DNA of 64,000 nucleotides from Bacteroidota bacterium (GTDB taxonomy: Bacteria; Bacteroidota; Bacteroidia; Bacteroidales; Cfx3-03), in contig JACAUB010000001.1 of NCBI GenBank assembly GCA_013390605.1, positions 1,148,233 to 1,212,232 on the forward strand, in the 5' to 3' direction. Below are positions 8,741-62,409 of the stretch, in pieces; position 1 is the first letter of the stretch, and every line of letters starts with the position of its first letter. Under the pieces are notes generated by a model. It was not told the DNA's origin and ran no database searches. It saw only the letters and a list, made by a program, of their open reading frames with translations. The translations under genes were made by a program, and so were the position numbers.

Positions 8741-10579
8741 ATGAAGGGACTATTTCTCACCGTATTTTCTCTATGGCTAGGCTTTTCGGGTATTGCCCAA
8801 ACCTTGTCATCCCCTTCTATAAATTATGATTTTGATTTTTTACGATTAGAGAGGGGGGCCTCTTCTTGGAAATTAAATGGGCGCAATTATACTTTTTCCA
8901 TCGACCAGGCAGAGAAGCAAAAAGGAGTAAGAGCACTTAAGATATCAGGTTATGTTTCCGGTCTTTTAAATTCGGACGTGATCTCATTCGATTGTAAAAT
9001 ATCTCAACTCATCCCACTTCCTAAAACGGCTTTAAAAGGAGTTTTTACTATAGATACGAAAATGCAAAATGTTGATCTATCATGGATCAAAATATATGGC
9101 TTAGATTATAACGAACAAGTCATCAGAAAAGACTCTATCAATTTAATCTATTCTGAAATCTGGAAAAATCATCGAGCCATCTTTAATTTAAAGGGAATAC
9201 ATTCTATTTATATTGAAGTAGGCGTAAGTAGTTCAATCGCACATTTTAAAGAACATAGAGAAAATACTGATTTCAGCTTAAGTCGGCTTTCATTAATAAT
9301 AGATGGCAAGGATATTTATTCACTTGCAACTCCTGTCAAAAGTGTTTCAGATCAACAACTTGTAGATATCAAGCAAAATACGCAACTAGACAATCATGAC
9401 GCGCAAAGTTATGCTGCAATCAACGATTTGAAAACACATCGTTTCGTAGCTCTTGGTGAAACAGTTCCGGGAAGCGTTTCTAGTCAGGAGAGTGCTTATA
9501 ATTTGATGAAAGAGATGATCCAGCATCAGAATTGCCGTCTGGTACTTTTAGACTATCCCTTATCATCCACACTACAATGGAATCAATATGTTCATGGCGA
9601 TTTAAAGACAAAATATCAGGAGTTTTTATCTCCGCTAGTCTATGGTTCAAAAAGTCCTACACTGTTTGAATCCTTTCTGGAATGGGTAAAGCAGTATAAT
9701 CAACTCAGCGATCAAAAAGTGACGATTGCCGGATTTGATACTCAGGGGGTGATCTATTATAATTATCTTGCCGATTATTTAATAAGCTTGAATAAAAGCT
9801 CTCTATTTTTTGATTCGTTGTTATTGAAAGTTTGTAAACAACAATTTAAGGAAGCCTTTCGATTTGCCTCAAACCATGATAGTTTGAATAACTATTTAAA
9901 ACCAGCTGAGGCCAATCTGTTTTTAAGTGCTTTAAAAAATCTAACCCGTGCCTACTTAAATGAAGGAAAACCGGAAATTGATAAATCTTTTCTTCGGTTT
10001 AATAATATCAAAGAAATTATCACGTCGCAACTCAAGAAAGATGAAAAAGCTGTAATCTTTGCAGATTTTTCTTCAGTTAATAAATTAAATGTAAATCCCT
10101 CAGCAATCTTTTCACATTCTATTGGATATTGGCTTAATCGAGAATATGGTAATGAATTTTATTCCATAGCCATTTTACTGGGTAACGGTTTATATACGTA
10201 TGCAAACACTGTAGAAATTACGGCGATAAATGAACTTGATCAGCCTCTATCTGGTTCCTTAGAAGATTTATGTATGAAGAGTAATCAATCTGTTTTTTAT
10301 AAGAGCTTATCTTCTGATCTCTATAATCGGATAGGTTATATGTATTGGGTGGATCGGTCAATGACGATGTCACAATTTGAAAGGTGCAACTATAAAAAGA
10401 GGATGGATGCTATTATTTTTATTAGAAACAGTAAAGGTTTTGATATTCCACAAGATTGGCCAAAAAATGATAAAGGTTTTTATGATTTTAATGCTGCGTT
10501 GATGCAAAAAGATTTTGAACGTCATTATAATAAGAAGTTTTACCATCCTACGCGGAGATATAGAGTGTATTTTAAATAA
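8741..10579 (+). CDS. secreted hypothetical protein; C-terminal part resembles the erythromycin-esterase fold family but lacks its His motifs
   Basis: 612 aa with a signal peptide (MKGLFLTVFSLWLGFSGIAQ). FVALGETVPGSVSSQE sits where Ere-family proteins have GEATHGT. VIFADFSSVN sits where they have AHN-x-H. The assignment comes from memory of the family and is not verified. Confidence 0.4.
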   Translation: MKGLFLTVFSLWLGFSGIAQTLSSPSINYDFDFLRLERGASSWKLNGRNYTFSIDQAEKQKGVRALKISGYVSGLLNSDVISFDCKISQLIPLPKTALKGVFTIDTKMQNVDLSWIKIYGLDYNEQVIRKDSINLIYSEIWKNHRAIFNLKGIHSIYIEVGVSSSIAHFKEHRENTDFSLSRLSLIIDGKDIYSLATPVKSVSDQQLVDIKQNTQLDNHDAQSYAAINDLKTHRFVALGETVPGSVSSQESAYNLMKEMIQHQNCRLVLLDYPLSSTLQWNQYVHGDLKTKYQEFLSPLVYGSKSPTLFESFLEWVKQYNQLSDQKVTIAGFDTQGVIYYNYLADYLISLNKSSLFFDSLLLKVCKQQFKEAFRFASNHDSLNNYLKPAEANLFLSALKNLTRAYLNEGKPEIDKSFLRFNNIKEIITSQLKKDEKAVIFADFSSVNKLNVNPSAIFSHSIGYWLNREYGNEFYSIAILLGNGLYTYANTVEITAINELDQPLSGSLEDLCMKSNQSVFYKSLSSDLYNRIGYMYWVDRSMTMSQFERCNYKKRMDAIIFIRNSKGFDIPQDWPKNDKGFYDFNAALMQKDFERHYNKKFYHPTRRYRVYFK

Positions 10580-55452: not shown

Positions 55453-55892
55453 TTGTCTGTAAAAGTAGGTTGTCCTCTGGTCATTTGTGCTTAATGTTGT
55501 GATGCAATATTAAAGTATAGATTATCAGGGGATATTTATTGTTTACTTCTGAATATCCTGGGATCAGACAAGAGCGTTAGAGAATATTTATCGCTCCAAA
55601 ATAAATAGATTAGATAAGGCATTGTTATTCTGTCCACTTGCGAGAAATCTTATTTTTCGTTGTGAATAATTATAAGCAAATCTCGCTCAAGAGATCAAAA
55701 GGGAAAAGATGTTTTATACGAACAACTTATTTTCGGTTGATTAATGTGACACAACTTTTCTACAAGAACCCCTATTTCTCAGTCGATATAGATTTATAAT
55801 CCGTATCGGCTGATCTTTTTACCGAATAAGAACATATATCATTTCAGCATCAGTCCTATAACTAATCCCAAAAGCAGGAGATCTATGGCTTT

Positions 55893-55985
55893 ACTGTATG
55901 GGATCTGTACCCGTTCTCTACCCCTTAGGGGTAGAGAACGGGTACAGATCCCATACAGTACGGGTAGAGAACGGGTACAGATCCC
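55893..55985. repeat. perfect 32-bp palindrome plus an extra direct half-copy
   Basis: ACTGTATGGGATCTGTACCCGTTCTCTACCCC (55893-55924), then TTA, then its exact reverse complement (55928-55959). GGGTAGAGAACGGGTACAGATCCC recurs at 55962-55985. GGGTA starts at 55929, 55940, 55962 and 55973 (11-nt grid), and TACCC starts at 55908 and 55919. Confidence 0.85.
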
Positions 55986-56727
55986 CCTGTTTTTATGAGT
56001 GTATTGGAATATTTTTATCTTCAGCGTAAAAGAGAAGAATCCTTCGGAAAGTTCAGGGGATGACCATGATAAGGCGACCACATAAAGCTCCGTCATTTTG
56101 ATCATTTGAAAAAATTGTCCTTAAAATGTTCACATTTAAATTGAAGCTCTTTTTACGTGGTCGGAATGACTACTTCAGTAGAAAAGAGGAAGTGGACTAT
56201 TCCCACAGTTTGTCGGACAGATCCAGCTTTCTAGAATATGCATAGAAGAGAATTTACACCAGGTTATGGCGAAAAATGGTTTTCGATATGCTAATTTCCA
56301 ATACCGATGACCATTAAAAAAAAACATGGATTCATCATTACATCCGGGGGGATGACGTTTATCTCCGGCTTTTGATACCAATCCTTCAATCGATGATGTT
56401 GGATTGGCATTAAATATTGATATGGATGTTTGTAGACATCAAAGACAAAAAAAATATTGACTACTACTCGAAAATTTAATTGCGGGGTAACTGAACTATA
56501 CAGACAATAACAACGAACCGCTAACAAGGGTTGCTGCAAGCGGAGCTGACATGCTACTATTGAACATTTTGCTATCTTTGAACATTAGTACTTCTATTGA
56601 GTGTTAGTGCTTTATTACCCCGTCTGACAGCAAGTCCCGAACCGTTAGGAGTCATAGTATTGCGATACTCAACGCTCAGGCATTTGGAATAAGAAACAAA
56701 GAAAAAATAATTAAAAAAATATAAATT

Positions 56728-57165
56728 ATGGCACTTATCAATCCACACATTAACTTCAACGGAAATGCCGAAGAGGCATTCAATTTTTACAAATCAGTAT
56801 TTGGCGGAGAGTTCGCAAAGATTATACGCCTCAGAGATATATCAAGCCCTGAATATCCGGTAGCAGAAGATGATGCAAATAAGATAATGCACATTGCTTT
56901 GCCAATTGGCAAAAACATTTTAATGGCCAATGACGTTCCAGAAAGTATGGGACCAGTAAATGAAAATGAAAACAGGTCTAAGATATCTATTAGTGCAGAA
57001 AGTCGTGAAGAAGCCGACAAATTATTTAGCGGACTTTCAGCAGGCGGAAATATTGAAGTACCTATTGGCGACAGTCCTTGGGGGGCATATTTTGGAATGT
57101 TTAGAGACAAATTCGGCATTGAATGGATGGTAGATTTTGACCCAAAATATAACGGAAAAGTATAA
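56728..57165 (+). CDS. VOC (glyoxalase/PhnB-like) family protein
   Basis: 145 aa. MALINPHINFNGNAEEAFNFYKSVFGGEF and the C-terminal FGIEWMV are typical of PhnB-like VOC proteins. Confidence 0.8.
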   Translation: MALINPHINFNGNAEEAFNFYKSVFGGEFAKIIRLRDISSPEYPVAEDDANKIMHIALPIGKNILMANDVPESMGPVNENENRSKISISAESREEADKLFSGLSAGGNIEVPIGDSPWGAYFGMFRDKFGIEWMVDFDPKYNGKV

Positions 57166-57270
57166 GCGAAAAACAACGAACGCATAACAGCAGTTTGGCA
57201 AAAAAGTGGGTGACATGCTTCTATGACACTTTTGTTGTTAAGCACATTTGTGCATCTAATGAACTTTAGT

Positions 57271-57550
57271 GCTAATATTCCGCAATGCTTACTTCAAAGG
57301 GGAAGGACATACTTTGATGACCGCAATAGAAGAATGCGCCAGAAACAATCCCAATAAAATTTTTGAAATTCAGAGAGCATTGGAAGATGCCGATTTAGTT
57401 GCGGTTCATTCCCGTGTGCAATAGATAAAAAACGACTTAGAGATAGCGGTAATTCATATTTTTCGATTAGACAAAGACAAAATTGTTGAACTTTGGGACT
57501 TTGGACAGGCTGTTCCGACTGACACAGTAAACGAAAATGGAATGTTTTGA
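57271..57550 (+). pseudogene. NTF2/SnoaL-like protein gene, N-terminally truncated with an in-frame TAG
   Basis: My translation reads FKGEGHTLMTAIEECARNNPNKIFEIQRALEDADLVAVHSRVQ, then TAG (57422-57424), then IKNDLEIAVIHIFRLDKDKIVELWDFGQAVPTDTVNENGMF and a stop at 57548-57550. The upstream part is cut by a TGA, and NIPQ lies in another frame. Confidence 0.6.
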
Positions 57551-57715
57551 GTGGTAAATTGATAAGAATAATGAATAAAAGTTCTGTGGACTTACCCGAA
57601 ATGCAAACTTTATTTTAGCAATTGTGTTACCCAATAACCAAACTGTTTTTAACGAGTAGAGAAAATGCGACATGTTTTCAAACCCAACTTCAGAATAAAC
57701 GTCTTTTACATTTAG

Positions 57716-57808
57716 TTAAATGATCTGCTGAAGTCTTGGGGTGAAATATTCGTTTTTTACCTTAAACAACTTGCTGAATGACTGTGAATGTTCAAAAATT
57801 CTGTCTCT
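57716..57808 (-). pseudogene. remnant of the last ~30 codons of an AraC-family gene
   Basis: Reverse translation reads RDRIFEHSQSFSKLFKVKNEYFTPRLQQII-stop, directly preceded by TAG. It begins 24 nt after the stop of the 496-aa gene. Confidence 0.55.
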
Positions 57809-57831
57809 CTAGCACTTTCATTGTATTAGAA

Positions 57832-59322
57832 TTACATTAATAAATTCTTCATTTTATTGATGTTACTTATGATTTCCTGTTTTTTATCAAGATCAATTTT
57901 TGTTTGGTCAATCATAGAGAGGATACCATCAATCTGAGCTAATGTTTTATTGTTTGATAATTTCATCTTCTCCTGCTCCAAGTTATATCTAAAGCTTACA
58001 GACTCAGTATTTATCTTTAATAATCCAGGAAGTAGTTTTAATAATTTTAGAGATTTATTAATCTCAATCAACGGGTTGGACTTAACCAACGCATGAAACA
58101 ATGTAACGATATTATCTCTTTTTTGATATCTATAATGAACACTACATTCTCTTAACTGCTTATTATTAATTCCATTATCAGAAGCTAATTCTTTTAACTC
58201 TCTCTCTATTTTAGCTAATGAATCTAATAGATTTGTATTTGTTGAATCGTTTAAAACTGAAGTGATATTTCTATGCCAAAATGATCTTAGATGATCACTT
58301 TCTGTATATCCATAGAGATGCTTAAATCCTTCATATACGACAACATTAATTCGTCTAAGATTTAATTGCTTTTCAAAATAATATTCTGAACTTAAATACG
58401 CTCTTAAAGCACACGCCAAGTCCAAATAGATAAAGAATATATGAATACCAGGAAAAGTTGATAAAATCAATGGTTGAAGTCTTTCGACAATCGTCATATC
58501 AAGTTGAAGCTTTTCTTGAATAACTTCCGGCATTTTACAATGTACAACAACGTTTTCTAATTGCTCTGCAAAATAAACTAATTTCTTGTCTAGCTCATTG
58601 AATAGATTATTGTTATTGTCAGGGAAATGATTGAATATCTTCCACACATCTATACCATAATCATTAATCGAATAAATAAGAGGTATTTGGTACTTTCGAA
58701 TATACTTATTTATAAAAAGCGTTATATCATCCAAGACCTTTAAAAAGCCACCTGCTCTTATTGTCTCATATTCTTCACTTATTTGCGACAAAAGGTTGTG
58801 AATTTTTATTGGGTTTGAATCATAATGAATGGATAAATTCCTTTTGTCTCTGTCTTTTTGCTGTGCATAGGCAATCTCAAATTCCTTTGCCCGCTGTTCA
58901 ATATCAACAATATCTTTGATTAATTCTGCATCATTTATTTGTTCTGCTAATTTTTTGACTATTTCCCATAGTGCATTAGTCTTATCTATCCCAAAACCAA
59001 ATAAATAGCTATATCCTTCAATTGATATTACATTAACGTATTTTAGATTACAGCGCTTTTCTGGATTTGAAGAAGATCTAAAGTTAGCTCTAAGAAATGT
59101 ACTTAAATCCAAATTTGTGATCAAAGAAAATTGATGTAGTTTCAGAAGTATTTTCCATAATCTAAGAATTTTGGGATATTTAGACTTTTCTTCATTTAAT
59201 GATTCTAAGCTTTCCAAAGAGTTATTACAATTGCAAAGTTGAGGAACAAACGATGAAAAGTTAACTCCCATGTTTTCATACAATTTTTGTATAGTTTCTT
59301 TTGATGCAGGCTTCTGAGTCAT
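57832..59322 (-). CDS. orphan 496-aa protein, internally duplicated, with two R-x4-H motifs (candidate tandem HEPN-like protein)
   Basis: Long intact ORF in very AT-rich DNA. Residues 71-111 and 300-340 align without gaps (17/41 identical by hand count). RNLSIHY is at 161-167 and RECSVHY at 391-397. The CDS call is firm; the functional label is a hypothesis. Confidence 0.8.
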   Translation of the reverse strand: MTQKPASKETIQKLYENMGVNFSSFVPQLCNCNNSLESLESLNEEKSKYPKILRLWKILLKLHQFSLITNLDLSTFLRANFRSSSNPEKRCNLKYVNVISIEGYSYLFGFGIDKTNALWEIVKKLAEQINDAELIKDIVDIEQRAKEFEIAYAQQKDRDKRNLSIHYDSNPIKIHNLLSQISEEYETIRAGGFLKVLDDITLFINKYIRKYQIPLIYSINDYGIDVWKIFNHFPDNNNNLFNELDKKLVYFAEQLENVVVHCKMPEVIQEKLQLDMTIVERLQPLILSTFPGIHIFFIYLDLACALRAYLSSEYYFEKQLNLRRINVVVYEGFKHLYGYTESDHLRSFWHRNITSVLNDSTNTNLLDSLAKIERELKELASDNGINNKQLRECSVHYRYQKRDNIVTLFHALVKSNPLIEINKSLKLLKLLPGLLKINTESVSFRYNLEQEKMKLSNNKTLAQIDGILSMIDQTKIDLDKKQEIISNINKMKNLLM

Positions 59323-59459
59323 TTTTTCTGTTGATTTTGATAAATGTAACTATTATTCTACATATACACCTCAACCTTTCATCAATATTGTCTGCCTGTC
59401 AAATTTTTTTTTAGCTTTAAATGTGATATTTATGTGAATATTTCCTCTGATCGCTACAT

Positions 59460-59831
59460 TTAGCTTTTTTGCAATGCTTTTTCATAGCATTCAATCAGGT
59501 CACGCAGTTTATTCTTAATTAATTCAATCGGAATATCTTCCAACGGGTTTATTTCGAGTGTTGAAACTCCATCTTTTTGTCGCTTCATATTTTCTTGCGG
59601 CATAGCCTTCTTGTCAACAACAAAGCCCAACAATATTTTCTTCTTGTTTATCCATAAAAAACTAATACTGAAATTTTTGTATCTAAAAAACGGAATTTGG
59701 TATTTTCTGAAATGCACAATTTGCGGATCAACCGACATGATGATTGATTTCAGGGCAAGTAAACAAGCTTTTGTTTCGTCGTTTTGCTTGTCGTAATAGT
59801 GTTCCAACGGATTTACCAATCGTGCGTCCAT
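59460..59831 (-). CDS. DUF1801 (YdhG-like) domain protein
   Basis: 123 aa. ACLLALKSIIMSVDPQIVHFRKYQIPFFRY fits the DUF1801 pattern. Its start abuts the tag stop. Confidence 0.7.
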   Translation of the reverse strand: MDARLVNPLEHYYDKQNDETKACLLALKSIIMSVDPQIVHFRKYQIPFFRYKNFSISFLWINKKKILLGFVVDKKAMPQENMKRQKDGVSTLEINPLEDIPIELIKNKLRDLIECYEKALQKS

Positions 59832-60380
59832 TTACTTTGTCAGCCACATAGGTTGGGTTTTAATAATTTTTTGGTGAACAGGGCAGTTTTCGTCGTGTGC
59901 TCCTTTCAAATAGCCGATGCTCATCAAAAATTCGTTGACAATTTCTCCACCGGTAAATTTGAAGGTCTTTTTTAAAAGTTTTACCCATTCTTCCTTCGTT
60001 TTAGGGTGGTGATGTTCTAGCCATTTTTCAAAACTACCATATTCTTTTTGAAACTGAAGAATCGTTTTTGCGTTTTCGATGGCTGCATTCACTTTCAGCT
60101 TATTGCGGATGATTCCAGCATCGTTAAGTAGGCGTTCGCGATCGCTTTCAGTATAGGCAGCGATTTTCTTGATATTAAAATTGTCGTAAGCCCGACGAAA
60201 GTTTTCTTCCTTTTTCAGGATGGTTTCCCAGCTTAGTCCCGCCTGATTGATCTCGAGAATCAACCGCCCGAACAGCTCATTATCATCGTGAATTGGGAAC
60301 CCGTAGTGGTTGTCGTGATAATTGGCGTGTAGACTTCGGCTCGGCTCAGTCATTAACGGAATGTAGGTGCAATAACTCAT
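59832..60380 (-). CDS. tag: DNA-3-methyladenine glycosylase I
   Basis: 182 aa with YHDNHYGFP, LFGRLILEINQAGLSWETILKK and a C-terminal Cys/His cluster (HDENCPVH). Confidence 0.9.
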   Translation of the reverse strand: MSYCTYIPLMTEPSRSLHANYHDNHYGFPIHDDNELFGRLILEINQAGLSWETILKKEENFRRAYDNFNIKKIAAYTESDRERLLNDAGIIRNKLKVNAAIENAKTILQFQKEYGSFEKWLEHHHPKTKEEWVKLLKKTFKFTGGEIVNEFLMSIGYLKGAHDENCPVHQKIIKTQPMWLTK

Positions 60381-61990: not shown

Positions 61991-62042
61991 TTCAGAAACT
62001 TGATTAAACCCCGCCCGAAATTCAAGCGGACTCTTATTGCTT

Positions 62043-62279
62043 TTACCTTAAACAACTACTGAACGATTGCGAGTGTTCAAAGCTCAGTTTATAAGCAATT
62101 TCGCTGAAGGATAAATCGCTGGTTGAGCGTTTTTCTTTGGCTTTTTCGATGGGCTTATTGTGAATATGTTGCTGGGAACTTTTGCCGATAAGCATTTTGA
62201 GTAAACTACTCAAGTAGTTGGCCGATATATTCAATTCATCGGCAATGTTTTGTACAGATGGTATGCCAATTCTTGCCAA
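62043..62279 (-). pseudogene. AraC-family HTH fragment, N-terminally truncated at the tRNA and frameshifted
   Basis: The ORF starts at a TTG and encodes only HTH helices (IADELNISANYLSSLLK...IAYKLSFEHSQSFS). The expected tail GKSNKSPLEFRAGFNQVSE is in another frame (62047..61991). No sensor domain is left between it and the tRNA. Confidence 0.6.
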
Positions 62280-62333: not shown

Positions 62334-62409
62334 TGGTGATCCGCCTGGGATTCGAACCCAGGACCCCATCCTTAAAAGGGATGTGCTCTACCTGCTGAGC
62401 TAGCGAATC
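62334..62409 (-). tRNA. tRNA-Lys (anticodon UUU), CCA encoded
   Basis: Folded by hand. Acceptor GATTCGC/GCGGATC (one G-U pair), D arm GCTC-AGCAGGTA-GAGC, anticodon arm CATCC-CTTTTAA-GGATG, variable loop GGGTC, T arm CTGGG-TTCGAAT-CCCAG, discriminator A, then CCA. Total 76 nt. Confidence 0.9.

What the first reader, a model, noticed from the sequence alone, without database searches (positions are those of the whole stretch)
57832..59322. AT-rich orphan gene encoding an internally duplicated protein with paired R-x4-H motifs: candidate single-chain tandem HEPN RNase
Seen in the sequence:
- The 496-aa product has no motif I recognise, but it is clearly two copies of one module.
- LDLSTFLRANFRSSSNPEKRCNLKYVNVISIEGYSYLFGFG (res 71-111) aligns without gaps to LDLACALRAYLSSEYYFEKQLNLRRINVVVYEGFKHLYGYT (res 300-340), with 17/41 identities by hand count.
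- Each copy is followed at nearly the same distance (90 and 91 residues) by R-x4-H-Y: RNLSIHY (161-167, nt 58825-58842 for R..H) and RECSVHY (391-397, nt 58135-58152).
- The gene is much more AT-rich than its surroundings. My hand count is about 26 percent G+C in a 120-nt sample, against about 41 percent in a sample of tag.
- Its stop lies 24 nt from the amputated tail of an AraC gene, so it looks like an insertion that replaced that gene.

Established knowledge: HEPN RNases use an R-x4-6-H catalytic motif, often R-N-x3-H, and work as dimers. Cas13 effectors carry two HEPN domains in one chain. Many abortive-infection and toxin proteins are HEPN.

Inference: this may be a compact pseudo-dimeric HEPN nuclease acting alone as a defence or toxin gene. 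There is no CRISPR array, cas gene or antitoxin-like partner nearby.

Caveat: R-x4-H is short, and I cannot verify the fold.
Basis: partly seen in the sequence, partly recalled or inferred. Interest (0 to 1): 0.75.

Follow-up and report, generated by a model that had tools for sequence, protein, structure and literature searches.

The report
Duplicated HEPN-like candidate defence RNase gene
This AT-rich, horizontally acquired gene belongs to a large unannotated Bacteroidota protein family built from two copies of a helical module, each carrying the Arg-x4-His signature of HEPN RNA-cutting toxins; its one-module relatives sit directly behind restriction-modification systems, so it is probably a new anti-phage or toxin RNase, but the fold assignment is unproven.

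Summary
The ORF at 57832-59322 (-) encodes 496 aa. Its two halves are homologous (hhalign 99.7%, E 1e-25), and RNLSIH and RECSVH are its only R-x4-6-H motifs.

It is not an orphan. An exhaustive profile search finds 327 clusters (at 50% identity), nearly all about 500 aa, none annotated. Across 130 diverse members H166 is invariant; R161 occurs in 125, H396 in 129, R391 in 112, and D or N follows R161 in 125.

One-module relatives of 200-290 aa lie directly behind type IIG or type II restriction-modification genes or KAP NTPases. Some two-module relatives do as well.

The window gene stands alone and is consistently AT-poorer than its flanks. Among close relatives it is present, absent or IS-disrupted. 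Where it is absent, SDR genes and an intact AraC gene occupy the site.

The AlphaFold model is confident (pLDDT 90) and all-helical. However, Foldseek, Pfam, NCBIfam, PADLOC, PHROGs and PDB searches link it to no known family, HEPN included.

Best reading: a new, internally duplicated HEPN-type RNase acting as a defence or toxin effector (about 0.5). The fold and the juxtaposition of the two motifs could not be tested.

The parts
57832..59322 (-). Gene for the 496-aa two-module protein (stop codon 57832-57834)
   Evidence: ORF list. 68 full-length homologues. 327 clusters at 50% identity. dN/dS 0.18-0.34 against orthologues.
58627..59322 (-). N-terminal module, residues 1-232. Long helices at 8-40, 50-82, 86-108, 132-152 and 183-210; a short helix at 155-165 carries the motif.
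   Evidence: AlphaFold models, pLDDT 90 (full length) and 85 (module alone). hhalign against the C-terminal module 99.7%.
57835..58626 (-). C-terminal module, residues 233-496. It repeats the N-terminal module and adds a long C-terminal helical tail (417-495).
58825..58842 (-). R161-N-L-S-I-H166, first R-x4-H motif (followed by Y167-D168)
   Evidence: In 130 diverse members: R 125, D or N at 162 in 125, H 130, Y 115 (plus 14 F).
58135..58152 (-). R391-E-C-S-V-H396, second R-x4-H motif
   Evidence: R in 112 of 130 and H in 129 of 130. The residue after R is variable (N, H, A or E).
59017..59019 (-). E102, a nearly invariant acidic residue upstream of motif 1, within E-G-Y-K..Y-G
   Evidence: E in 129 of 130. 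The equivalent C-module position, E331, is kept in only 62 of 130.
58372..58422 (-). D301 to E317, the conserved acidic residues of the C-terminal module (D-L..A.RAY.S....E-K-Q.NLRR)
   Evidence: D301 in 120 of 130 and E317 in 125 of 130. The N-module equivalents are weaker: D72 in 60 (plus 46 E) and E88 in 104.
59323..59459 (-). Upstream intergenic region, presumed to hold the promoter. No conserved RNA element was found.
   Evidence: Conserved only among the closest relatives. No Rfam hit, and only one weak two-copy tandem repeat at 59421-59443.
57704..57815 (-). Frameshifted AraC-family C-terminal remnant just downstream of the stop codon
   Evidence: Translations. A 42-nt core is shared with the AraC fragment at 62041-62081. 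Weak HTH_AraC and HTH_18 hits.
57607..57703 (-). Tail of a second AraC gene (EVGFENMSHF..). Homology to relatives that lack the gene resumes here.
   Evidence: blastn to L020-L024. In L021 and L022 this is the 3' end of an intact AraC gene of 267-291 aa.
59460..60380 (-). DUF1801 gene and tag (3-methyladenine glycosylase I). This upstream block is conserved in relatives whether or not they carry the gene.
   Evidence: Pfam. Synteny.
62334..62409 (-). tRNA-Lys(TTT), bordering the variable region
   Evidence: In Aquirufa beregesia the tRNA is followed directly by tag, DUF1801 and the gene.

Best explanation
The gene encodes a member of a large, so far unannotated protein family of Bacteroidota.

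Anatomy (shown):
- The family's building block is an all-helical module of about 215 aa.
- The module carries an invariant R-[N/D]-x3-H-[Y/F]-D motif and conserved acidic residues further upstream.
- In this protein the module is duplicated in tandem.

Mechanism (inferred):
- The two copies pack as an intramolecular pseudo-dimer.
- The two Arg/His pairs form one composite, metal-independent RNase site of the HEPN type, as in Cas13 or in homodimeric HEPN toxins.
- The protein acts as a defence or abortive-infection effector, or as a toxin, that cuts cellular and/or phage RNA when triggered. The likeliest targets are tRNA, rRNA or mRNA.

Context (shown):
- One-module relatives, presumed to be homodimers, are the last gene of restriction-modification operons or neighbours of KAP NTPases. 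This is the classic PrrC/RloC-like 'second line behind R-M' setting of HEPN genes.
- The window's two-module subfamily has no fixed partner. It moves as a single AT-rich gene into variable chromosomal sites.

Unknown: how its activity is held in check.
For: Shown:
- The internal duplication is real, with the R and H residues in register.
- The motifs are the conservation peaks of the family. Across 130 members at 17-67% identity to the query, H166 is in 130, H396 in 129, R161 in 125 and R391 in 112. D or N follows R161 in 125, and E102 is in 129. PMC3710099 defines the HEPN signature as R-x4-6-H with a polar N, D or H after the R, plus an upstream acidic residue.
- The models are confident and all-helical: pLDDT 90.1 and pTM 0.87 for the full protein, pLDDT 84.9 for the module. 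The module's best Foldseek matches are up-down helical bundles.
- One-module proteins match the N- and C-module profiles about equally (E about 1e-40 each). They keep all of D, E, E, R, H, Y and D. The two-module proteins show complementary decay: E331 survives in 62 of 130 and Y397 in 54, while E102 and Y167 are retained. This is the pattern expected after fusion of a homodimer.
- Defence context in relatives:
  - P0193 starts 4 nt after an HKD-SNF2 helicase plus type IIG REase-MTase pair (PADLOC E 2e-53 and 1e-257), on an element with an integrase and a relaxase.
  - P0266 lies 64 nt after a C5 methylase plus MvaI/BcnI endonuclease, beside GmrSD and HNH genes.
  - P0100 overlaps the end of an Eco57I/TaqI_C methylase.
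  - P0188 and P0200 adjoin KAP NTPases.
- Mobility and dispensability. The gene is 3.5-19 G+C points below its flanks in all 15 loci. It has no conserved neighbour. In syntenic relatives it is present, absent or IS256-disrupted. dN/dS is 0.18-0.34.

Inferred: the RNase chemistry, the pseudo-dimeric active site and the defence role of this particular gene.
Against: - No sequence method links the family to any HEPN family. This covers Pfam, NCBIfam, PADLOC, PHROGs and PDB profile searches, including scans of 95 members and of consensus sequences. The single sub-threshold HEPN_Apea hit, in 1 of 95 members, is compatible with noise.
- Foldseek finds no solved HEPN structure with either model, and nothing in BFVD. 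This negative is weakened by the report that Foldseek and HMM searches also failed to connect Cas13an to known Cas13 proteins (PMC12165695).
- hhalign against Cas13an gives 0.8% probability.
- The upstream acidic residue lies in E-x2-K rather than the usual E-x3-[KR].
- In the model, the R-x4-H sits in a short helix between two long helices rather than clearly at the start of the last core helix.
- Proximity of the two motifs was not measured, because no coordinates were available.
- No antitoxin, guide RNA or sensor explains how a constitutively fused RNase would be tolerated.
- No homologue was found on sequenced plasmids or phages.
Confidence: 0.5

Rival explanations
1. A defence- or conflict-associated effector with a new, non-HEPN all-helical fold. 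The conserved Arg/His/Glu/Asp residues would form a different active site, for example a DNase, a nucleotide or NAD hydrolase, or a nucleotide-binding regulatory site. The R-x4-H resemblance would be convergent.
For: - No sequence, profile or Foldseek link to HEPN despite confident models.
- Each module conserves more polar residues (D72, R78, E88, R90, K94, E102, Y106) than a minimal HEPN domain.
- The motif sits in a short inter-helix segment.
- The defence context fits any effector chemistry.
Against: - The extended motif R-[N/D]-x3-H, an upstream acid, an all-helical bundle, an obligate two-module or dimeric organisation and R-M linkage together match the published HEPN definition point by point.
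- HEPN families are notoriously undetectable from one another by sequence or Foldseek.
Confidence: 0.25
2. A non-catalytic protein, such as a ligand- or nucleic-acid-binding sensor, scaffold or regulator. It would be analogous to inactive HEPN-like substrate-binding domains, and the Arg/His residues would bind a ligand rather than cleave RNA.
For: - The gene is tolerated with no visible antitoxin or regulator in 15 different contexts.
- One-module relatives are third genes of R-M operons and could be specificity or regulatory subunits.
- A long C-terminal helical tail (417-495) suggests protein-protein interaction.
Against: - Near-absolute conservation of R, H and E across members at 17-20% identity is more typical of catalysis.
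- According to PMC3710099, HEPN domains that keep R-x4-6-H are predicted to be RNases, whereas the binding-only ones have lost it.
- The gene is repeatedly lost or disrupted, like a costly accessory gene.
Confidence: 0.15
3. A miniature Cas13-like or AbiF-like RNA-guided or RNA-regulated RNase. Its RNA partner would be encoded nearby or in trans.
For: - Its size (496 aa) and two-HEPN-like layout resemble Cas13an (429-577 aa).
- The first motif, R-N-x3-H-Y-D, resembles the Cas13an HEPN1 motif R-[N/H]-x-L-E-H-Y-[D/E].
Against: - No CRISPR array, repeat, Rfam family (including Abi-associated RNAs) or conserved intergenic sequence was found next to the gene here or in 15 loci.
- hhalign against Cas13an gives 0.8% probability.
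- None of the 12 published intramolecular HEPN-dimer clusters is from Bacteroidota, and the three whose sequences I tested did not match.
Confidence: 0.03

Closest known systems
HEPN superfamily RNases linked to restriction-modification systems (PrrC, RloC, Abi2/Swt1-like, DUF4145 clades; Anantharaman et al. 2013, PMC3710099)
   Same: - The R-[N/D]-x3-H motif with an upstream conserved acid.
- An all-helical bundle.
- A need for two copies of the module.
- One-module relatives encoded right behind type IIG or type II R-M genes and beside P-loop NTPases.
   Different: - No profile or fold-search similarity to any of these families.
- The module is larger (about 215 aa) and has extra conserved motifs (D-L..RA, E-K-R.NLK, E-G-Y-K..Y-G).
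- The window gene is fused into a tandem pair and has no R-M neighbour.
Cas13 and Cas13an, and the non-CRISPR 'intramolecular HEPN dimer' clusters of PMC12165695
   Same: - Two HEPN-type motifs in one chain.
- A compact size close to that of Cas13an.
- Origin by fusion of two closely related modules, as proposed there for the Cas13 ancestor.
   Different: - No CRISPR array or guide RNA.
- No sequence relation (hhalign 0.8%).
- The two halves are still recognisably homologous (99.7%), which implies an independent and simpler duplication.
- The family is Bacteroidota-specific and absent from that paper's list.
AbiD/AbiF (Abi_2) and other single-gene abortive-infection HEPN proteins
   Same: A stand-alone, AT-rich, horizontally mobile single gene with an RN..H motif.
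   Different: - No Abi_2 Pfam match.
- No associated non-coding RNA (RF03085 or any other Rfam family).
- Not found on plasmids.
HepT/MNT (DUF86) type VII toxin-antitoxin HEPN toxins
   Same: The R-x4-H-x-Y-like motif (here R-x4-H-Y) and a dimeric active site.
   Different: No MNT nucleotidyltransferase partner, no DUF86 match, and a much larger module.

Membership tests
HEPN superfamily | Conserved R-x4-6-H motif with a polar residue (N, D or H) right after the Arg | tested here: met
   Motif 1: R161 in 125 of 130, D or N at 162 in 125, H166 in 130. Motif 2: R391 in 112, H396 in 129. Definition from PMC3710099.
HEPN superfamily | A second conserved acidic residue upstream, typically within E-x3-[KR] | tested here: inconclusive
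   Conserved acids are present: E102 in 129 of 130, E317 in 125, D301 in 120. The local pattern is E-x2-K or E-K-R, not E-x3-[KR].
HEPN superfamily | Four-helix up-down bundle fold superposable on solved HEPN domains | tested here: inconclusive
HEPN superfamily | Profile similarity to a recognised HEPN family | tested here: not met
   hmmscan of the query, of 95 members and of consensus sequences against Pfam found only one sub-threshold HEPN_Apea hit. NCBIfam, PADLOC, PHROGs and PDB gave nothing. HHpred against a full profile library was not available.
HEPN superfamily | Dimerisation that brings two R-x4-H motifs into one composite active site | not testable with these tools
   The tandem duplication and the one-module homologues fit this feature. 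No coordinates were returned, so no distances could be measured. A covariation analysis (mfDCA, effective sequence number about 100-148) gave only noise.
HEPN superfamily | Metal-independent RNase activity | not testable with these tools
   Needs biochemistry.
Cas13 / Cas13an (type VI CRISPR effectors) | An adjacent CRISPR array or guide RNA | tested here: not met
   No repeats or array, and no Rfam hit, in the window or near the gene. There is no conserved flanking DNA across loci.
Cas13 / Cas13an (type VI CRISPR effectors) | Sequence or profile relation to Cas13an | tested here: not met
   hhalign gives 0.8% probability, and hmmsearch scores are about 0 bits.
AbiD/F (Abi_2, PF07751) | A Pfam Abi_2 match and an associated non-coding RNA | tested here: not met
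   No Abi_2 hit. No Rfam hit at E of 1 or better in 57000-60000.
R-M-linked HEPN effectors (PrrC/RloC-like logic) | A conserved gene neighbourhood with restriction-modification genes | tested here: inconclusive
   Met for relatives P0193, P0266 and P0100, and probably P0189. Not met for the window gene or its 15 closest loci.
Toxin-antitoxin module | A conserved small adjacent partner gene | tested here: not met
   All-against-all BLAST of neighbouring ORFs in 19 loci finds no shared neighbour.

The most novel reading that the evidence does not exclude
The family is an independent, evolutionarily recent example of what has been proposed for the Cas13 ancestor: a homodimeric, R-M-linked HEPN-type RNase captured in the act of becoming a single-chain pseudo-dimer.

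One-module and fused forms coexist, and the two active-site halves show complementary decay. The stand-alone fused form would have gained its own trigger, such as direct sensing of a phage RNA or protein. If so, it would be a new single-gene RNA-targeting immune effector, widespread in Bacteroidota including gut Bacteroides.
Probability: 0.2. Interest if true: 0.7.

Novelty: new variant of a known kind. Interest (0 to 1): 0.5.

Why it matters
If the HEPN reading is right, three things follow.

- **A gap in annotation.** This is a large family (327 clusters at 50% identity) that is missing from Pfam, NCBIfam and PADLOC. Defence-system catalogues for Bacteroidota, including human-gut Bacteroides mobile elements, overlook it.
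- **A natural series for study.** The family spans homodimeric R-M-attached forms and fused stand-alone forms. It could show how intramolecular HEPN dimers such as Cas13 arise, and how an always-assembled RNase is kept silent.
- **A compact scaffold.** At 496 aa, a single-chain RNase may also be of practical interest.

If the reading is wrong, the family is a new helical effector fold tied to restriction-modification systems, which would be at least as interesting.

Tried and rejected
- **Family libraries.** Pfam, NCBIfam, PADLOC and PHROGs scans of the query, of distant members and of HMM consensus sequences found nothing recurrent. The HEPN_Apea hit of P0195 (E 0.0014, below the cut-off) occurs in 1 of 95 members, so I do not count it as evidence.
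- **PDB sequence profiles.** Only coiled-coil noise.
- **Foldseek.** The full model against PDB and BFVD, and the N-module model against PDB, gave no hit at E of 0.001 or better.
- **Cas13an and other published dimers.** hhalign and hmmsearch were run against Cas13an sequences, two bacterial 'intramolecular HEPN dimer' proteins (from Bacillus and Clostridium) and one Daphnia Apea-like protein from PMC12165695. All were null.
- **Covariation.** Mean-field DCA, meant to test contact between the two motifs, was dominated by gap artefacts and then by noise. It was unusable.
- **Plasmid and phage collections.** No homologue.
- **RNA partner.** Searches for an associated RNA, repeat or terminator found nothing.
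- **Final profile search.** The A3 profile search added no new architectures.
- **Rejected: Cas13-like RNA-guided effector.** There is no array or RNA.
- **Rejected: classical toxin-antitoxin pair.** There is no conserved neighbour.
- **Rejected: pseudogene or spurious ORF.** The gene is under purifying selection and has hundreds of full-length homologues.
Full report
**1. The observation**

The ORF at 57832..59322 on the minus strand encodes 496 aa.
- 17 of 41 identities between residues 71-111 and 300-340.
- RNLSIHY at 161-167 and RECSVHY at 391-397, which are the only R-x4-6-H matches in the protein.
- Spacings of 90 and 91 residues, and the stated nucleotide coordinates.

The gene has 29.2% G+C, against 35.9% for the window and about 40-42% over tag.

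The duplication is not a chance resemblance. BLASTP of the two halves gives E 4e-10. A profile-profile comparison of residues 1-232 with 233-496, built from 130 diverse family members, gives 99.7% probability and E 1.2e-25 over 200 columns. It places R161 on R391 and H166 on H396.

**2. Not an orphan**

A word-indexed search found 68 homologues down to 37% identity. All are about 495-505 aa, all are 'hypothetical', and all come from Bacteroidota.

An exhaustive HMM search of 1.84 billion representatives found 327 clusters at E of 0.001 or better, and 235 at 1e-10 or better. Most of the 150 listed hits are about 490-510 aa.

Genome hits include Aquirufa beregesia, Bacteroides faecalis, Niabella, and MAGs labelled Prolixibacter, Rikenellaceae and Saccharicrinis.

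**3. Conservation**

In 37 sequences down to about 35% identity, R161, H166, Y167, R391 and H396 are invariant.

Counts in 130 sequences at 17-67% identity to the query:

| Position | N-terminal module | C-terminal module |
|---|---|---|
| His of motif | H166: 130 | H396: 129 |
| Arg of motif | R161: 125 | R391: 112 |
| Residue after Arg | D or N: 125 | variable (N, H, A, E) |
| Residue after His | Y167: 115 (plus 14 F) | Y397: 54 |
| Acid in E-G-Y-K | E102: 129 | E331: 62 |
| Acid in E-K-R/Q | E88: 104 | E317: 125 |
| Acid in D-L | D72: 60 (plus 46 E) | D301: 120 |

The two modules therefore decay in a complementary way.

Proteins of 200-290 aa with a single module exist (P0188, P0189, P0193, P0208, P0212 and a large 200-aa subgroup). 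They match the N- and C-module profiles about equally (E about 1e-40) and keep all of D, E, E, R, H, Y and D. This is the pattern expected if a homodimeric ancestor was fused and the two halves then specialised.

**4. Structure**

AlphaFold2 with the family alignment gives a confident all-helical model: pLDDT 90.1, pTM 0.87. The N-terminal module alone gives pLDDT 84.9.

Each module consists of:
- a long N-terminal helix;
- a helical hairpin (50-82 and 86-108) that carries the D-L..RA and E-K-R..E-G-Y-K motifs;
- short helices;
- a long helix (132-152);
- a short helix ending in R-x4-H (155-165);
- a long closing helix (183-210).

Foldseek found nothing significant. The best E values were 0.25 (PDB, full model), 0.2 (BFVD) and 0.055 (PDB, N-terminal module). 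The module's best matches are designed or natural up-down four- and five-helix bundles, and no HEPN entry is among them.

**5. Sequence-family tests**

No recurrent match was found in Pfam, NCBIfam, PADLOC, PHROGs or PDB sequence profiles. This covers the query, 95 members scanned individually and HMM consensus sequences.

One member (P0195) hits HEPN_Apea at E 0.0014, below the gathering score. I treat this as noise.

hhalign against Cas13an sequences taken from Table S3 of PMC12165695 gives 0.8% probability, although the first motifs look alike (R-N-x3-H-Y-D against R-[N/H]-x-L-E-H-Y-[D/E]). The 12 'intramolecular HEPN dimer' clusters of that paper include no Bacteroidota protein. The three whose sequences I tested (from Bacillus, Clostridium and Daphnia) do not match.

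**6. Genomic context of the window gene**

No neighbour is shared across 15 distinct loci. In every locus the gene is 3.5-19 G+C points below its flanks; in L008, for example, it is 28.8% against 47.9%.

The window's locus lies in a variable region beside tRNA-Lys (62334-62409). Syntenic relatives share tag and DUF1801 and then differ:
- A. beregesia (L020) and one MAG (L024) carry the gene.
- L019 carries it disrupted by an IS256-family transposase at about codon 78 and truncated.
- L021, L022 and L023 lack it. L021 and L022 have one or two SDR genes plus an intact AraC regulator of 267-291 aa in its place.

Homology to those genomes breaks at window position 59515 and resumes at 57703, which is the tail of that AraC gene. 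Directly after the stop codon there is an additional frameshifted AraC tail.

dN/dS against orthologues is 0.18-0.34. No CRISPR array, Rfam RNA, tandem repeat or terminator-like site lies nearby. No homologue occurs on sequenced plasmids or phages.

**7. Context of relatives**

| Relative | Form | Neighbourhood |
|---|---|---|
| P0193 (214 aa; indexed in 424 blocks of the collection) | one module | starts 4 nt after an HKD-SNF2 helicase plus type IIG REase-MTase pair (PADLOC E 2e-53 and 1e-257), on an element with an integrase and a relaxase |
| P0266 (200 aa) | one module | 64 nt after a C5 methylase plus MvaI/BcnI endonuclease, beside GmrSD and HNH genes |
| P0189 | one module | overlaps the end of an ORF whose tail looks to me like a methylase C-terminus (my reading; Pfam did not confirm it) |
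| P0188 | one module | follows a KAP NTPase |
| P0208 | one module | follows a DUF4145/HEPN-like protein that carries RNKLAHN |
| P0100 | two modules | overlaps the end of an Eco57I/TaqI_C methylase |
| P0200 | two modules | precedes a KAP NTPase in two contigs and follows a Schlafen/AlbA_2 gene in one |

Linkage to R-M systems is described as one of the commonest contexts of prokaryotic HEPN genes, interpreted as a PrrC-like second line of defence (PMC3710099).

**8. Interpretation**

Shown:
- a real, widespread, selected, horizontally mobile gene family;
- a tandem duplicate of a helical module;
- an R-[N/D]-x3-H motif and upstream acids as its conservation peaks;
- a defence-island or R-M context in several branches.

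Inferred:
- the module is a divergent HEPN domain;
- the two modules form a pseudo-dimeric, metal-independent RNase site;
- the protein is a defence or toxin effector.

I put about 0.5 on the HEPN-RNase reading and about 0.7 on a conflict or defence role of some kind. The main rival (0.25) is a new, non-HEPN helical effector with a convergent motif. A non-catalytic binding role gets 0.15, and a Cas13-like or AbiF-like RNA-partnered nuclease gets 0.03.

How a permanently fused RNase is kept inactive is unexplained.

**9. Novelty**

HEPN defence RNases and single-chain HEPN dimers (Cas13, Cas13an and a few uncharacterised clusters) are known. This family is not in any library I could search or any paper I found. 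It has its own module architecture, and it shows both the one-module and the fused state.

I class it as a new variant of a known kind, conditional on the fold. Interest is moderate at 0.5. It is not a surprise to a HEPN specialist. It is, however, an unannotated family found on mobile elements in gut metagenomes and a good model for how intramolecular HEPN dimers arise.

Noticed in passing
window 57755-57796 and 62041-62081 (both - strand): Two degenerate AraC C-terminal tails share a 42-nt core that is nearly identical. They are the only two copies in the window and lie in direct orientation 4.29 kb apart. They bracket the block AraC-like, DUF1398, tag, DUF1801 and the gene. They could be the trace of an integration or a recombination between AraC paralogues next to tRNA-Lys. 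This is unexplained.
   Followed up: partly
L019 6435-8382: In a syntenic relative the orthologue is split at about codon 78 by an IS256-family (Transposase_mut, E 6e-100) insertion and is truncated after about residue 132.
   Followed up: yes
L006 / L020 (Aquirufa beregesia 50C-KIRBA): The orthologue (79% identity) appears to carry a premature stop about 33 codons before the normal end: the ORF ends at 9389, whereas the match runs to 9488. This could be decay, a tolerated tail truncation or a sequencing error.
   Followed up: no
L019, L021-L023 against the window and L020: MAGs labelled Prolixibacteraceae share 80-85% nucleotide identity and synteny (tag, DUF1801, AraC, DUF1398) with the window and with Aquirufa beregesia, which belongs to a different order. 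Either the taxonomic labels are doubtful or the whole block is laterally shared.
   Followed up: no
L028 570-1301: The gene just upstream of the one-module homologue P0208 encodes a 243-aa protein with RNKLAHN and weak DUF4145 and HEPN_Swt1 hits. This would pair a recognisable HEPN-like protein with the new module.
   Followed up: partly
P0133 (659 aa): A family member with a C-terminal extension of about 170 aa of unknown type. It has lost the second R-x4-H motif.
   Followed up: no
window 57269-57550 (+): A reading frame interrupted by an in-frame stop at about 57422 (..VAVHSRVQ*IKNDLEIAVIHIFRLDKDKIVELWDFG..). It looks like a decayed small gene. Together with the two AraC remnants and the truncated AraC fragment at 62043-62279, it marks this stretch as a zone of gene decay.
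   Followed up: no
window 55453-56727: About 1.27 kb with only short, implausible ORFs between the GH3 glycosidase gene and the glyoxalase-family gene. No Rfam family reaches its gathering score there.
   Followed up: no
L029-L032: The operon HTH, HKD-SNF2 helicase (1128 aa), type IIG REase-MTase (1099 aa) and one-module protein sits on an integrase- and relaxase-bearing element. It recurs in many metagenome contigs; P0193 is indexed in 424 blocks of the collection. It may be a distinct multi-gene defence system.
   Followed up: partly
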